Shown: positions 34,549 to 43,352, counted from the stretch's first letter. The stretch: 50,753 nucleotides of DNA from Nanobdellota archaeon (GCA_021851145.1 JAJZJK010000001.1:1-50753); one strand, 5' to 3'. Notes: generated from the sequence alone by a model not told the origin. Numbers and translations are program-made.

Positions 34549-35676
34549 ATGGATGATATGCAAATGGATAATTCACTTAGTCAAGGGATAAAAGGAATAA
34601 AATACGATGCTAGCAAGACAAAAGAGTTTGATAAGTCTCTAGAGGAATTAATTGCATCAAGAAGAGCAAATATAAAGGTTGTAGGAGTAGGCGGTTCTGG
34701 TAACAATACTCTTAATAGAATGTTTGAAGTTGGAATAAAAGGGGCAGAGTTTATTGCAGTAAATACAGACGCAGCAGATCTTTTGTGCACTCCCGCAGAT
34801 AAAAAGATACTTATAGGTAAGGAATTAACAAACGGTTTAGGGGCAGGTGCAGATCCATCAGTAGGTGAAGCGGCTGCTAAAGAGCAGGAGCAGGAGATCA
34901 AAGAAGCGCTTCAAGGTGCGGATTTAGTTTTTATATGTTGTGGTATGGGTGGTGGAACCGGTACTGGTGCTGCTCCGGTCGTTGCGTCTGTAGCTAAAAA
35001 GATAAATGCGCTTACAATCGCAGTAGTCACTTTGCCATTTAAAGCAGAGGGCAGGAGAAGAATGAATTCTGCAATTAGTGGAGTCGAAAAACTAAAAAAC
35101 ACTGTAGACACATTGATAACAGTTCCAAATGAAAAATTAATGGCAATAGCCCCTGGTTTGCCTCTTCCAATTGCATTAAAGATAGCAGATGATGTTCTTA
35201 CAAATGCAGTTAAAGGGATAACAGAATTGATAACTAAAGCAGGACTTATAAATGTAGACTTCGCAGATGTAAAACGAATTATGTCTAACGGAGGAGTTGC
35301 GCTTATAGGTACTGGAGAAAGCGATGCTAAAGACAAAAAGCTTGAAACTGTAGTGGAAAAAGTTCTTAATAACCCACTTATAGACGTAGATGTTTCAACT
35401 GCAAAAGGTATGTTAATTGATGTAAGTGGCGGCCCTTCGCTCACTTTAGAAGAAGCAAACAAGCTTGTCGATTTAATCGGCCAAAAATTGCCTGAGGATA
35501 TAAACATAATATGGGGTGCACATATATTCCCGGACTTGAAGAATACTGTAAAGGTTCTTGCAATAATAACCGGCGTTACCTCAAAACAAATAAGCGGTAA
35601 GTCCATAGCAGAGGATCAACAACTTAAGGAAAAGAAGGAAGTTGAAGACGAGCTTGGCATAACCTTTCTAAGTTAA
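34549..35676 (+). CDS. ftsZ: Cell division protein FtsZ (paralogue 2)
   Basis: VVGVGGSGNN, FIAVNTDAADL and tubulin signature GMGGGTGTGAAPVVA. Followed directly by secE, as in many Euryarchaeota. Confidence 0.93.
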   Translation: MDDMQMDNSLSQGIKGIKYDASKTKEFDKSLEELIASRRANIKVVGVGGSGNNTLNRMFEVGIKGAEFIAVNTDAADLLCTPADKKILIGKELTNGLGAGADPSVGEAAAKEQEQEIKEALQGADLVFICCGMGGGTGTGAAPVVASVAKKINALTIAVVTLPFKAEGRRRMNSAISGVEKLKNTVDTLITVPNEKLMAIAPGLPLPIALKIADDVLTNAVKGITELITKAGLINVDFADVKRIMSNGGVALIGTGESDAKDKKLETVVEKVLNNPLIDVDVSTAKGMLIDVSGGPSLTLEEANKLVDLIGQKLPEDINIIWGAHIFPDLKNTVKVLAIITGVTSKQISGKSIAEDQQLKEKKEVEDELGITFLS

Positions 35677-40775: not shown

Positions 40776-42380
40776 ATGCCAACAAAGTTTATAGTAGTTT
40801 TAGGATCAATAATGAGTGGGTTAGGCAAAGGGGTTGTATCCTCTTCTATAATGAAGATACTGGATATGTATAATTTTAAGGTCCTACCAATAAAGTTTGA
40901 CGGTTACTTAAATTATGACTGTGGAACTATGAACCCTTATAGGCATGGAGAAGTTTTTGTATTAGACGATAAAGGGGAGGTAGACATGGATTTTGGAACT
41001 TATGAAAGGTTCCTTAATAAAAATCTTACAAGTAGCTCTTCTATAACAGGAGGTAAACTCTTCGGAAGTATAATAGAAAAAGAAAGAAAAGGGGAATATC
41101 TTGGTGAGGATGTTCAAGTGATACCCCACCTTACAAATGAGATACAGGAAAAAGTAAAGGATTTTGCAATCAAAAATAAACTTGATTTTGTTGTAATAGA
41201 AGTTGGCGGAACAGTTGGAGATATCGAGAATGGTTATTTTATTGAGGCTATGAGACAGCTTTCTCTTAAAGAAGAAGTAATATTTGTTGACGTTACATAT
41301 GTGCCAAGGTTGAAAACCGTCGGTGAGCAAAAAAGCAAGCCAACTCAGTCAGCTTTTAGAGCTTTAATGGGGATGGGGATAATGCCAAACTTTCTTATCT
41401 GTAGAACAGATGGGGAGATGAGCGAAGGTATAAAAAAGAAACTTGCAATGTTTACAAGTTTGGATGAAAATAGGGTAATAAATGATCCAGATATGGACTC
41501 CCCCTATCAACTGCCACAGTACCTAATAGACCAGAATTTTGATAAGATCCTATTAAACTCATTAAAATTACCAAATAAAAAAATAAATAAGCAAAAATTT
41601 GCAAAGTGGAGCAGAGACGTTGGAAAAATTACCAGTAAAGACGGGAAAAACATTACAGTAGCTGTTGTAGGTAAGTATGTTGAATTAAAAGACTCGTATG
41701 TAAGTGTCAAAGAAGCTTTAATGCACGCAGCAGGGAAATTATCAATTAATCTAAATATAAAGTGGATCGAATCTGAATTACTTGAAAAATCAGATCCATC
41801 AGTTGTTCTAAAAGGAATAAAAGGTTTAGTGGTCCCGGGCGGATTTGGGAAAAGAGGTATAGAAGGGATGATAACAGCAATAAAGTATGCCAGAGAGAAC
41901 AAGATACCTTACTTAGGATTGTGTTTGGGCATGCAGTTAATGGCTGTGGAATTTGCAAGAAATGTTTGTGGTTTAAAGGGCGCAAACTCAACCGAATTTG
42001 ATCCTAAAACAAAGTACAATATAATTGACATTTTACCCTCACAAGTTTCAATAAAGCAGAAGGGGGGCACAATGCGTTTAGGTGCCTGGGATATGGTAAT
42101 AAAAAATAAAGATTCAATTGCCTTTTCATCTTATAATAAAAAGGTAGTGTCTGAACGACACAGGCACAGGTACGAATTTAATAATAAATTTGGGAAAACT
42201 TTAGAGAATTCAGGACTTAAAGTAACCGCAACTACAACCGACAATAAATTAGTAGAGATTATAGAATGGCCAATAGGTTTTGGAGTAGCTACACAGGCAC
42301 ATCCTGAGCTGAAATCCAGGATAGAATCTCCTGCCCCGCTGTTTCTATCATTTCTTAGTGCTTCAAAGGATATCAGTTAA
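40776..42380 (+). CDS. pyrG: CTP synthase
   Basis: GKGVVSSSI, YLNYDCGTMNPYRHGEVFVLDDKGEVDMDFGTYERF, GATase nucleophile YLGLCLGMQ, and ERHRHRYEFN. Confidence 0.95.
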   Translation: MPTKFIVVLGSIMSGLGKGVVSSSIMKILDMYNFKVLPIKFDGYLNYDCGTMNPYRHGEVFVLDDKGEVDMDFGTYERFLNKNLTSSSSITGGKLFGSIIEKERKGEYLGEDVQVIPHLTNEIQEKVKDFAIKNKLDFVVIEVGGTVGDIENGYFIEAMRQLSLKEEVIFVDVTYVPRLKTVGEQKSKPTQSAFRALMGMGIMPNFLICRTDGEMSEGIKKKLAMFTSLDENRVINDPDMDSPYQLPQYLIDQNFDKILLNSLKLPNKKINKQKFAKWSRDVGKITSKDGKNITVAVVGKYVELKDSYVSVKEALMHAAGKLSINLNIKWIESELLEKSDPSVVLKGIKGLVVPGGFGKRGIEGMITAIKYARENKIPYLGLCLGMQLMAVEFARNVCGLKGANSTEFDPKTKYNIIDILPSQVSIKQKGGTMRLGAWDMVIKNKDSIAFSSYNKKVVSERHRHRYEFNNKFGKTLENSGLKVTATTTDNKLVEIIEWPIGFGVATQAHPELKSRIESPAPLFLSFLSASKDIS

Positions 42381-42410
42381 TTATATAAAGAATAAAATTG
42401 CTTTATTGTT

Positions 42411-42476
42411 ATGGCAGAAGAAGATGAAGGAAAATGCAGCTGCGGTGGTAACTGTGGATGCGGTTGTTCTGATTAA
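42411..42476 (+). CDS. Candidate 21-aa Cys-rich, metallothionein-like micropeptide (MAEEDEGKCSCGGNCGCGCSD)
   Basis: Hand-translated ATG...TAA ORF 30 nt after the pyrG stop. It has 5 Cys in CxC/CGCGC arrangement and is followed by a T-run (AAATTTTT). It is a local G+C-rich island in AT-rich spacer and is too short for the ORF track. Confidence 0.35.
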   Translation: MAEEDEGKCSCGGNCGCGCSD

Positions 42477-42556
42477 ATTTTTGGTTTAATTCTTATTGTA
42501 TTCTTAAAAAAAGGTTTATTTAAACCTATTTATATAGGTTCTATTCTATAAAAAAG

Positions 42557-43045
42557 ATGGAAGAAAAATTAAAATCTTTCCTAATAAATGAGCTTTTATC
42601 TTCAGGTTTTTCTAATTCAAAAGCTTCAGAACTAGAAAAAAAGCTTTCACGTCTAGGTTCTGCTGGAAATAACGTTGCTGCTGATTTAACAACTTACAGC
42701 AAAAATTATGAAAGTAATAAAAAAATGTTTTATGAAAGATCTATAAATACACTCAGTCAATATGTTTATACCGATACTGTAGCTTATCTTTCGAGCAAAC
42801 TGTTTTCATCCAAAAATGACAACACCGATTGCGCTTTAGATCTTCTTGGAAAGGGATATATTTCCTCTTATGTTAATTTTTTAGATATTAGTTATAAACA
42901 TTCAAAAGGAATAGAATTTCTTTATAAAGTATTTTCTCAAGGTGATTTTAATGAAGAGAAAATTAAAGATTTAATAAGAGAAGATGTAAAAGAAAGAGAT
43001 TTAAAGAAGCTTATCCCACAAGAGATTTTATCTAATATTTATTAA
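42557..43045 (+). CDS. Hypothetical protein
   Basis: 162-aa ORF with no motif recognised. Its 3' end overlaps the convergent SWIM gene by 14 nt. Confidence 0.45.
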   Translation: MEEKLKSFLINELLSSGFSNSKASELEKKLSRLGSAGNNVAADLTTYSKNYESNKKMFYERSINTLSQYVYTDTVAYLSSKLFSSKNDNTDCALDLLGKGYISSYVNFLDISYKHSKGIEFLYKVFSQGDFNEEKIKDLIREDVKERDLKKLIPQEILSNIY

Positions 43046-43352
43046 TCTTATCTTTGTTTTTAATGTATACATTTCTTATCTTTAACATATGCTTGCAAGG
43101 TACTCCATAGTACTGAACGGATTCACAAGTGCAGTTTCCGCCTAATAAATACATAGAAGCTTGTAGGTAGTCGATTTCTACCTTGTGAAAATATCCCTCT
43201 CTTGATTCACTTTCAGTATATCCTGAGATTTTAGTTGTCCTGCCATTTATATTAATCCCATAAATTCTAGTTTTTTTATCAGAAGATATAACCAAACAAG
43301 GACTTCCTAATATCTCATCTAATTTGTAGGTTTTTTGATTTGCTGATGTCAT
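43032..43352 (-). CDS. SWIM-type zinc-finger protein
   Basis: CTCESVQYYGVPCKH = CxCx(n)CxH SWIM signature near the C-terminus of a 106-aa protein. Confidence 0.65.
   Translation of the reverse strand: MTSANQKTYKLDEILGSPCLVISSDKKTRIYGININGRTTKISGYTESESREGYFHKVEIDYLQASMYLLGGNCTCESVQYYGVPCKHMLKIRNVYIKNKDKINKY

What the first reader, a model, noticed from the sequence alone, without database searches (positions are those of the whole stretch)
42411..42476. Unannotated 21-codon Cys-rich ORF resembling a copper metallothionein
Hand translation gives MAEEDEGKCSCGGNCGCGCSD. Five of its 21 residues are Cys, arranged as C-x-C and C-G-C-G-C. An acidic N-terminus is present and aromatics are absent. This composition is reminiscent of small fungal/cyanobacterial metallothioneins, for example the CxC-rich Neurospora Cu-MT type. 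The ORF sits in an otherwise AT-rich spacer 30 nt after pyrG and is followed by a T-run. It is invisible to length-thresholded ORF callers. Metallothioneins are essentially undescribed in archaea. The surrounding genome carries other metal/acid-niche genes (sulfocyanins, H+-ATPase, ArsC-like).
Basis: seen in the sequence. Interest (0 to 1): 0.62.

Follow-up and report, generated by a model that had tools for sequence, protein, structure and literature searches.

The report
Conserved cysteine-rich mini-gene in Parvarchaeota
A 21-codon reading frame just after the CTP synthase gene is a real, never correctly annotated gene of tiny acid-mine archaea, and its product has the make-up of a miniature metallothionein, a protein class not described in archaea, though metal binding is untested.

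Summary
The ORF at 42411-42476(+) reads MAEEDEGKCSCGGNCGCGCSD, exactly as reported. It is a real gene.

- **Conservation:** A syntenic orthologue occurs in all 11 related Parvarchaeota loci I could fetch, giving 11 distinct peptides including the window's own. These loci have pyrG 68-86% identical to the window and GC 31-48%.
- **Peptide pattern:** The peptides are 21-27 aa. They run M-A, then an acidic/Lys stretch, then (Cys-x) four to five times, then Cys-Ser-Asp/Glu. They hold 5-6 Cys and no aromatic, His or hydrophobic residue.
- **Selection:** Cys, Gly and Ser codons vary freely at the third base. pN/pS is 0.13 in this frame against 2.06 and 0.78 in the other sense frames.
- **Transcription signals:** Every copy has a TATA box ending 21-22 nt before the ATG, which is the leaderless-promoter layout. 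A T-rich tract follows the stop codon in most copies.
- **RNA alternative:** No RNA family or RNA structure explains the sequence.
- **Known families:** Pfam, NCBIfam and the PDB give no match, so it is not a homologue of any known metallothionein family. It does meet every sequence-level criterion of the operational class.
- **Most likely role:** A cytosolic thiolate-cluster peptide that buffers Cu(I), or other thiol-loving metals or metalloids, in metal-rich acid mine drainage.
- **Not tested:** Metal binding and expression. The three available metatranscriptomes contain nothing from this organism.

The parts
42381..42389 (+). Archaeal TATA box (TTATATAAA), starting 1 nt after the pyrG stop codon and ending 21 nt before the ATG. 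This predicts a leaderless transcript starting at or next to 42411.
   Evidence: a TATAWA or TTTATAAG element ends 21-22 nt before the ATG in all 11 orthologous loci; among long ORFs of this window the same motif clusters 19-25 nt before the start codon.
42411..42476 (+). 21-codon gene encoding MAEEDEGKCSCGGNCGCGCSD: an acidic N-terminal tail followed by a (Cys-x)n thiolate-rich core.
   Evidence: establish the ORF. Orthologues appear. pN/pS is 0.13. All Cys columns mix TGC and TGT, Gly columns use all four codons, and Ser uses all four TCN codons.
42478..42482 (+). T5 run directly after the stop codon, a likely archaeal oligo-T terminator.
   Evidence: T-rich tracts follow the stop codon in most orthologues. 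The rest of the downstream spacer cannot be aligned between relatives.
40776..42380 (+). pyrG (CTP synthase). This is the syntenic anchor only and is not functionally tied to the mini-gene.
   Evidence: The mini-gene lies 13-30 nt after pyrG in 11 of 12 sequences (the window and 10 of the 11 fetched loci). In L014 a 155-aa gene on the opposite strand lies between them.

Best explanation
42411-42476 is a leaderless, independently transcribed micro-gene. It is confined, as far as I could look, to one clade of acid-mine Parvarchaeota (DPANN archaea).

Its product is about 2.1 kDa and has two parts. The first is a highly acidic, probably disordered N-terminal tail (MAEE[DE].E.K). The second is a core of five or six cysteines at every second position, separated by Gly, Ser, Asn or Asp.

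Inferred mechanism: the apo-peptide is unstructured. The thiolates wrap around a small polynuclear metal-thiolate cluster. With six Cys the most economical options are:
- a Cu(I)4(S-Cys)6-type cluster;
- two divalent ions in a Zn2/Cd2-Cys6 arrangement;
- two As(III) or Sb(III) ions.

The peptide would then act as a cytosolic buffer or sink, like a metallothionein, in a very small cell living in metal-rich, acidic water. Cu(I) is favoured for two reasons. CxC runs are typical of Cu(I)-thiolate proteins, and Cu(I)-thiolate clusters survive low pH.

Shown here: the gene is real and under purifying selection, it has promoter architecture, and its composition is MT-like. Inferred only: translation in vivo, metal binding, and which metal. 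My confidence that the gene is real is about 0.93, and that it acts as a metal-thiolate binder about 0.5.
For: 1. **Orthologues.** They occur in 11 fetched loci, and with the window this gives 11 distinct peptides. M1, A2 and four Cys columns are invariant, and a fifth Cys column and the penultimate Ser are nearly so.
2. **Codon signature.** Among six close orthologues the variable columns fall 5/3/16 by codon position, with pS 0.735 and pN 0.093.
   - For six ungapped 22-codon genes pN/pS is 0.13 in this frame. It is 2.06 and 0.78 in the other sense frames.
   - The one antisense frame with a low ratio (0.19) has stop codons in three orthologues.
   - Every Cys column mixes TGT and TGC.
3. 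**Divergent genomes.** The peptide is kept across genomes of 31-48% GC.
4. **Promoter.** The TATA box ends 21-22 nt before the ATG in all 11 loci. That is the typical spacing for genes of this window.
5. **Composition.** Cys is 22-29%, there are no aromatic, His or hydrophobic residues, and the pI is about 4.1.
6. **Single origin.** Carriers form a pyrG clade with 100/99 support plus one deeper branch, and one origin is compatible with the tree.
7. **RNA ruled out.** No Rfam family matches, the fold z-score is -1.36, and covariation is negligible.
8. **Ancestral neighbour.** In 8 of the 11 fetched loci the next gene is a DUF1059 protein, which JGI names 'predicted small metal-binding protein'.
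9. **Ecology.** Parvarchaeota live in metal-rich acid mine drainage and encode blue-copper proteins, and copA was detected in only some MAGs (3 of the five in one study) (PMC7779479; PMC5864196). Sulfocyanin-like genes lie 3.8 kb downstream in the window.
10. **Precedent.** Small fungal Cu-MTs with 7 Cys bind about 6 Cu(I), and Cu(I)-MT complexes persist below pH 3.5 (PMC13107397).
Against: - There is no experimental or transcript evidence. Three metatranscriptomes from a study whose DNA runs hold the organism have no contigs on this region, or on pyrG.
- There is no sequence homology to any MT family.
- No metal-handling gene or metal-sensing regulator is consistently adjacent. DUF1059 adjacency is clade-specific: it is absent from the window and L001-L004, and more distant DUF1059 loci carry no Cys-rich ORF.
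- Five or six Cys is at the low end for a stable cluster, so oligomerisation may be needed.
- The window's own copy has lost one Cys (TGY to GGT), as has L002 through a 6-nt deletion. Cys number is therefore not strictly fixed.
- Length changes come in 3- or 6-nt steps, which keep the frame. Indel phase is therefore not in itself evidence of coding.
Confidence: 0.5

Rival explanations
1. Thiol redox or oxidant-scavenging peptide. The repeated C-G-C units would act as a gene-encoded low-molecular-weight thiol or disulfide buffer, or as an isomerase mimic, in an archaeon without glutathione. Metal storage would not be its main role.
For: The core is made of CxC units, mostly CGC. From general knowledge, the CGC tripeptide motif is redox-active and has been described as a protein-disulfide-isomerase mimic. 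Acid-mine organisms face strong oxidative stress, and Parvarchaeota carry few antioxidant systems (thioredoxin reductase and peroxiredoxin; PMC7779479). Known MTs also scavenge oxidants, so this role overlaps with the main reading.
Against: No redox partner gene is linked in the conserved neighbourhood. Alternating Cys with no fold and Gly/Asp spacers is the classic metal-thiolate pattern. Variants with DCDC spacers (L028, L029) move away from the CGC motif.
Confidence: 0.13
2. Precursor of a ribosomally synthesised, post-translationally modified peptide, for example a linear azole-containing peptide. The acidic N-terminus would be the leader and the Cys/Gly/Ser/Asn stretch the core.
For: From general knowledge, the composition of the core resembles Cys/Gly/Ser-rich azole-peptide cores. 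The architecture is a charged N-terminal part followed by a Cys-rich C-terminal part.
Against: No YcaO, dehydrogenase, radical-SAM, lanthipeptide, protease or exporter gene was found. This holds for 40 of the 53 ORFs of 110 aa or more in the 50.7-kb window and for the conserved neighbourhoods of relatives. The 'leader' is only 8-13 residues. The genomes are ultra-small (0.53-0.76 Mb in one Parvarchaeota family, PMC7779479) with little biosynthetic capacity. The peptide has no export signal.
Confidence: 0.06
3. A micro-protein with another role, binding a partner protein and perhaps carrying a single structural metal site. One example would be a modulator of the neighbouring DUF1059 protein or of another enzyme. 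It would not be a metal buffer.
For: The mini-gene stays next to DUF1059 even where it is separated from pyrG (L014). Many archaeal micro-proteins act by binding larger proteins (general knowledge).
Against: The window and L001-L004 keep the mini-gene after DUF1059 has gone from the site. DUF1059 loci outside the clade have no such ORF. There are no hydrophobic residues to form an interface.
Confidence: 0.2
4. Not a gene. It would be a chance ORF inside a conserved non-coding element such as the pyrG 3' terminator, a regulatory RNA, or a hexanucleotide (TGYGGN) microsatellite.
For: The core is a 6-nt repeat whose expansions and contractions keep any frame open. The ORF is tiny, and ORFs with at least 5 Cys arise about 0.6 times per shuffled window.
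Against: Substitutions concentrate at third codon positions, with pN/pS 0.13 only in this frame. The ATG, the stop codon and the TATA box at fixed distance are conserved in 11 loci across 31-48% GC. There is no Rfam hit and no significant or covarying structure. The flanking spacer is not conserved.
Confidence: 0.04

Closest known systems
Fungal family-8 (fungi-I) copper metallothioneins of Neurospora crassa and Agaricus bisporus (about 25 aa, 7 Cys, about 6 Cu(I); PMC13107397)
   Same: Both are extremely short single-domain peptides. Cys is mostly in C-x-C units separated by Gly, Ser or Asn, and there are no aromatic residues or His. A Cu(I)-thiolate cluster is expected.
   Different: There is no detectable homology. 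Here the Cys form one almost uninterrupted CxCxCxCxCxC run of 5-6 Cys, preceded by an 8-13-residue acidic tail. From my own knowledge, the fungal peptides space their CxC pairs with longer loops and lack the acidic tail. This family is archaeal and leaderless, and its metal binding is untested.
Bacterial metallothioneins (SmtA/BmtA, Pfam PF02069; mycobacterial MymT)
   Same: Prokaryotic, small, Cys-rich, cytosolic metal-buffer proteins.
   Different: From general knowledge, these are about 50-60 aa with a folded zinc-finger-like core that includes His and aromatic residues (SmtA), or with mixed Cys/His motifs (MymT). No Pfam hit was found here.
Phytochelatins and synthetic (Glu-Cys)n peptides
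   Same: Short acidic peptides with a thiol at every second residue that chelate Cd, Cu and As (general knowledge).
   Different: Phytochelatins are made enzymatically with gamma-Glu linkages. This peptide is gene-encoded, with Gly, Ser, Asn or Asp spacers and the acidic residues gathered at the N-terminus.
PF12669 FeoB-associated Cys-rich membrane protein
   Same: A small protein with a Cys/Gly-rich tail. It was the only Pfam family to appear at all (E = 7.4 for one orthologue).
   Different: The score of 7.4 bits is far below the cut-off of 27. That family carries a membrane helix, and this peptide has no hydrophobic residue. It is not a member.
Other unannotated Cys-rich mini-genes of archaea noted earlier in this scan (Micrarchaeota 41 aa/11 Cys, Nitrosopumilales 15-47 aa, Thermoplasmata 38-49 aa)
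   Same: They share the profile: hidden from gene callers, conserved, CxC-rich, MT-like and untested.
   Different: These are unchecked AI notes. This family is shorter and has its own acidic-tail-plus-(CG)n design.

Membership tests
Metallothionein (operational class) | Low molecular mass (below about 10 kDa) | tested here: met
   2.0-2.7 kDa, 21-27 aa.
Metallothionein (operational class) | High Cys content (about 15-35%) in conserved CxC, CxxC or CC motifs | tested here: met
   22-29% Cys. Four Cys columns are invariant and one is nearly so, all in C-x-C register.
Metallothionein (operational class) | Absence or scarcity of aromatic residues and His | tested here: met
   None in any of the 11 peptides.
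Metallothionein (operational class) | High metal content bound in metal-thiolate clusters, shown by stoichiometry and spectroscopy | not testable with these tools
   This needs the peptide and metal titrations.
Metallothionein (operational class) | Expression, often induced by metal | tested here: inconclusive
   The only RNA runs offered (X14-X16) have no contigs on this locus or on pyrG. No other RNA run holds it.
Known MT sequence families (Pfam Metallothio*, PF02069 bacterial, fungal families; PDB MT chains) | Detectable sequence homology to the family profile | tested here: not met
   No Pfam family at E up to 10 except a spurious PF12669 hit. NCBIfam gave none. The PDB gave none for the single sequence or the 11-sequence profile at E up to 10.
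RiPP precursor (linear azole-containing peptide / TOMM) | Co-located maturation genes (YcaO cyclodehydratase, dehydrogenase, protease or exporter) | tested here: not met
   None among the 40 window ORFs scanned or among called genes around the orthologues.
RiPP precursor (linear azole-containing peptide / TOMM) | Leader peptide long enough for enzyme recognition (typically 20 aa or more) | tested here: not met
   Only 8-13 residues come before the first Cys.
Structured non-coding RNA or terminator element | Rfam match, or a stable covarying secondary structure | tested here: not met
   No Rfam hit at E up to 1. Fold z = -1.36. The consensus structure is -5.9 kcal/mol, with one compensatory pair out of 8.

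The most novel reading that the evidence does not exclude
This would be an independently evolved metallothionein family of DPANN archaea and among the shortest gene-encoded metallothioneins known (21-22 aa). A single (Cys-x)5-Cys run would cage one Cu(I)4S6-type cluster, or two Zn/Cd/As ions, and an acidic tail would keep it soluble. It would serve as the cytosolic metal buffer of ultra-small cells in acid mine drainage. Together with the other hidden Cys-rich mini-genes flagged in this scan, it would show that archaea do have metallothioneins and that these have been missed because gene callers discard ORFs this short.
Probability: 0.4. Interest if true: 0.78.

Novelty: new variant of a known kind. 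Interest (0 to 1): 0.62.

Why it matters
One review states that metallothioneins occur in all organisms except archaea (PMC8836122), and another that they are not widespread in prokaryotes (PMC8490943). Here is a clearly selected, promoter-equipped gene in uncultured acid-mine archaea whose product satisfies every sequence criterion of the class.

It is invisible to standard annotation. The one public gene call over it, in assembly GCA_021832485.1, is in the wrong frame.

If it binds metal, three things follow:
- It fills a gap in how DPANN archaea with genomes as small as 0.53-0.76 Mb (reported for one Parvarchaeota family) cope with copper, arsenic and other metals.
- It provides a minimal 22-residue natural scaffold for metal-thiolate cluster chemistry that is stable at low pH.
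- It argues for systematic searches for very short Cys-rich genes.

The test is cheap: the peptide can be bought as a synthetic 22-mer.

Tried and rejected
- **Length limits.** The search for homologous proteins refuses queries under 40 aa. Structure prediction and the search of protein representatives need at least 30 aa, so they could not be used.
- **JGI metagenome collection.** The scan with the peptide alignment matched 352 stretches, and none was confirmed by tblastn. A degenerate DNA pattern gave 5 hits, all chance matches: four inside longer frames of unrelated DNA at 44-65% GC, and one (L011) a separate short GT-repeat ORF.
- **Viral contigs.** None.
- **RNA evidence.** Three metatranscriptomes have no contigs from the organism.
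- **DUF1059 linkage.** I tested whether the mini-gene travels with DUF1059 beyond the clade. It does not.
- **More distant pyrG neighbourhoods.** Loci with pyrG 63-66% identical (L016-L018) have no such ORF.
- **Read-through.** Extension of pyrG by read-through is rejected. Two in-frame stop codons lie between pyrG and the ATG (read from the sequence), and by the coordinates the mini-gene start is in a different phase from pyrG in L002 and L004.
- **Alternative ORF.** The overlapping 43-aa GTG ORF (42358-42489) is rejected, because that frame has pN/pS 2.06.
- **Cys-sensing leader peptide.** I rejected the idea that the ORF controls the downstream gene. That gene has its own TATA box, and it differs between relatives.

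Full report
**1.

The + strand at 42411-42476 reads ATG...TAA and encodes MAEEDEGKCSCGGNCGCGCSD. Its layout is as follows:
- It starts 30 nt after the stop codon of a 534-aa CTP synthase gene (pyrG, 40776-42380).
- A T5 run at 42478-42482 follows it.
- It is a GC island (about 0.43) in a spacer of about 0.2 GC.

On composition alone it is only moderately improbable:
- Of 165 ATG-ORFs of 20-45 aa in the window, two have at least 5 Cys.
- Shuffled windows give 0.575 such ORFs.
- Only 0.02 per shuffled window have three or more CxC motifs.

The sequence is identical in contigs of five other mine-drainage or tailings runs from four studies. This includes the GGT codon where relatives have Cys. The only variant in the 321 bases laid lies in the downstream spacer.

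**2. Where the window comes from.**

The genome-contig scan with pyrG returned five MAGs labelled Parvarchaeota or 'Nanoarchaeota', at 80-86% pyrG identity. The DNA runs that hold the window are mine-drainage and mine-tailings metagenomes.

**3. It is a conserved gene.**

All five MAG loci carry a 21-22-codon ORF at the same place. I took further pyrG homologues from the protein collection and looked up their contigs. This added L013, L014, L015, L026/L027, L028 and L029. In all there are 11 distinct peptides:

| Locus | Peptide |
|---|---|
| window | MAEEDEGKCSCGGNCGCGCSD |
| L001 | MAEEEKEEKCGCGCGCSCGCSD |
| L002 | MAEEENEDKCGCGCSCGCSDE |
| L003 | MAEEENEEKCGCGCNCGCGCSD |
| L004 | MAEEEKEEKCGCGCNCGCGCSD |
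| L005 | MADEEKEGKCGCGCGCNCGCSD |
| L013 | MAEDDKESCGCGCGCGCGCSD |
| L015 | MAEDAKEENSGCSCGCNNNCGCGCSDQ |
| L014 | MANEEPRKEEDKSCDCGSGCGCGCC |
| L028 | MAEEEKEEKCGCGCGCDCDCSD |
| L029 | MAEDEKKEGCGCDCGCNCDCSE |

These genomes range from 31 to 48% GC. On a pyrG tree the carriers form a clade with 100/99 support, plus L014 on a deeper branch, and a single origin is compatible with the tree.

Three more distant loci (pyrG 63-66% identical) have no such ORF near pyrG. Whether it lies elsewhere in those genomes could not be tested.

**4. Selection acts on the protein, not on the nucleotides.**

- Among the six closest orthologues, variable columns fall 5/3/16 by codon position. Summed pS is 0.735 against pN 0.093.
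- Across all 11, every Cys column mixes TGT and TGC. Gly columns use all four GGN codons, and the penultimate Ser uses all four TCN codons.
- For six ungapped 22-codon genes pN/pS is 0.13 in this frame. The other two sense frames give 2.06 and 0.78.
- The only antisense frame with a low ratio (0.19, the wobble-matched one) contains stop codons in three orthologues.
- The spacer after the stop codon cannot be aligned between relatives.
- No Rfam family matches. The RNA fold is not better than shuffles (z = -1.36). The alignment fold is weak and shows almost no covariation.

One caveat applies. The core is a (TGYGGN)n hexanucleotide repeat, and length changes occur in 3- or 6-nt steps (L002, L015). 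The phase of the indels is therefore not independent evidence of coding.

**5. It has its own promoter.**

In all 11 loci a TATA box (TATATAAA, or TTTATAAG in two loci) ends 21-22 nt before the ATG. In the window it lies at 42381-42389, starting 1 nt after the pyrG stop codon. Among long ORFs of the window the same motif clusters 19-25 nt before start codons. This fits a mostly leaderless gene organisation, so transcription should begin at or next to the ATG. No Shine-Dalgarno-like sequence is conserved. T-rich tracts follow the stop codon in most loci.

The downstream gene has its own TATA box and differs between relatives. It is a 162-aa unknown protein in the window and L001-L004, and a DUF1059 protein in L005, L013-L015 and L026-L029. 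The mini-gene is therefore not an upstream leader ORF for it.

**6. What the product looks like.**

- It is 2.0-2.7 kDa with a pI of about 4.1 and 22-29% Cys.
- It has no aromatic residue, no His, and no hydrophobic residue after Met1.
- An acidic, Lys-punctuated tail of 8-13 residues comes first. Cys then occupies every second position, with Gly, Ser, Asn or Asp as spacers, and the peptide ends Cys-Ser-Asp/Glu.
- It has no signal peptide or membrane segment, so it should be cytosolic.

**7. Comparison with known families.**

Pfam gives nothing at E up to 10 except a spurious 7.4-bit match of one orthologue to PF12669. NCBIfam gives nothing. The PDB gives nothing for either the single sequence or the 11-sequence profile. 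It is therefore not a homologue of any curated metallothionein family.

Metallothioneins are, however, an operational and polyphyletic class, and all of its sequence-level criteria are met here. The closest analogues are the roughly 25-aa, 7-Cys fungal Cu-thioneins of Neurospora and Agaricus. These bind about six Cu(I), and Cu(I)-MT complexes remain stable below pH 3.5 (PMC13107397).

One review states that MTs exist in all organisms except archaea (PMC8836122), and another that they are not widespread in prokaryotes (PMC8490943). The phrase 'archaeal metallothionein' occurs in no paper of the library. Two genomic papers on Parvarchaeota list copA, arsC, merA and blue-copper proteins. One of them contains no mention of metallothionein. 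I did not search the other for the word.

**8. Context.**

Pfam scans covered 40 ORFs, about three quarters of those of 110 aa or more in the window.
- **Near the mini-gene:** a P-type ATPase, unknown membrane proteins, pyrG, an unknown 162-aa protein, a SWIM zinc-finger protein on the opposite strand, and a GH15 glucoamylase.
- **3.8 kb downstream:** two sulfocyanin-like blue-copper proteins.
- **Farther away:** a VIT1 transporter and an LMW-phosphatase/ArsC-like protein.

None of these is a metal chaperone, a metal-sensing regulator or a peptide-modifying enzyme.

The DUF1059 neighbour, named 'predicted small metal-binding protein' by JGI, stays adjacent even in L014, where the pair is separated from pyrG. 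Two findings weaken the link. DUF1059 is missing from the window and L001-L004. More distant DUF1059 loci carry no Cys-rich ORF. I therefore treat the linkage as weak, clade-specific evidence.

**9. Most likely mechanism (inference).**

An unstructured acidic peptide uses its six thiolates to enclose a small metal-thiolate cluster. The candidates are:
- a Cu(I)4S6-type cage, as known from other six-Cys Cu(I) sites (general knowledge);
- two divalent ions;
- two As(III) ions.

It would buffer thiol-loving metals in the cytosol. Cu(I) is favoured because CxC runs are typical of cuprous-thiolate proteins and because such clusters tolerate acid. The organism also needs copper for its blue-copper proteins while living in metal-rich water.

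The rivals are a thiol redox buffer, a partner-binding micro-protein and a RiPP precursor. The last is disfavoured by the absence of maturases and by the 8-13-residue 'leader'.

**10. Expression is untested.**

The only RNA runs offered, three small metatranscriptomes from a study whose DNA runs hold the organism, have no contigs on the locus or on pyrG. This says nothing either way.

**11. Earlier notes of this scan.**

Those notes list several other unannotated Cys-rich mini-genes in Micrarchaeota, Nitrosopumilales and Thermoplasmata that were read the same way. They are unchecked AI notes and are not independent support. They do suggest that this is one member of a wider, overlooked class. 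No word-level match to this peptide was found among them.

**Verdict.**

The gene is real (about 0.93). The metallothionein-like reading is the best explanation but is unproven (about 0.5). It is a new, non-homologous variant of a known functional kind, in a domain where that kind has not been described, and it can be tested cheaply with a synthetic peptide.

Noticed in passing
L026:3143-3238 and L027:2457-2552 (GCA_021832485.1 and an ENA assembly): The only public gene call overlapping the mini-gene is a 31-aa ORF (MKKKKENVDAVADATVDVQIKFIRFFRNTYK) in the +1 frame. That frame has pN/pS of about 2, so the call is in the wrong frame. The real 22-codon gene (L026:3136-3204) is not called.
   Followed up: yes
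L005:4765-4998; L013:4251-4484; L014:4887-5108; L015:4269-4478; L026, L027, L028, L029: A DUF1059 gene (69-81 aa, with conserved Cys7, Cys14, His33 and His38; JGI name 'predicted small metal-binding protein') with its own TATA box follows the mini-gene in 8 loci. It is missing at this site in the window and in L001-L004. Nothing has been published on its function: only 2 papers mention DUF1059, each once.
   Followed up: partly
window 43032-43352 (-): A 106-aa SWIM zinc-finger protein on the opposite strand overlaps the 3' end of the unknown 162-aa gene (42557-43045) by 14 nt. Homologues are kept convergent to the same neighbour in L001 and in L015, L028 and L029 (also present, beside DUF1059, in L005 and L013). 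A stand-alone SWIM protein in a DPANN archaeon has no obvious role.
   Followed up: no
window, all long ORFs: TATAWA motifs cluster 19-25 nt before start codons, with a second, smaller cluster at 29-34 nt. This suggests that most genes of this genome are transcribed as leaderless or near-leaderless mRNAs.
   Followed up: partly
window 42447-42449 (GGT) and L002:4637-4702: The number of Cys in the family changes by point mutation (TGY to GGT in the window, fixed in five other runs) and by gain or loss of units in 3- or 6-nt steps (L002 lacks one Cys-x unit, and L015 has an inserted C-N-N-N). This is a small-scale version of the modular evolution described for metallothioneins.
   Followed up: partly
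one search hit list (pyrG): The pyrG of this Parvarchaeota clade is 60-65% identical to pyrG of many Micrarchaeota MAGs, about as close as to another MAG labelled Parvarchaeota (63%). This may point to shared ancestry or to gene transfer between the two acid-mine DPANN groups.
   Followed up: no
window 34935-34997 (+): The only other small ORF in the window with at least 4 Cys and at least 15% Cys among those of 50 aa or fewer (MLWYGWWNRYWCCSGRCVCS) lies out of frame inside the ftsZ gene (34549-35676). It is rich in aromatic residues and is most likely a chance ORF.
   Followed up: no
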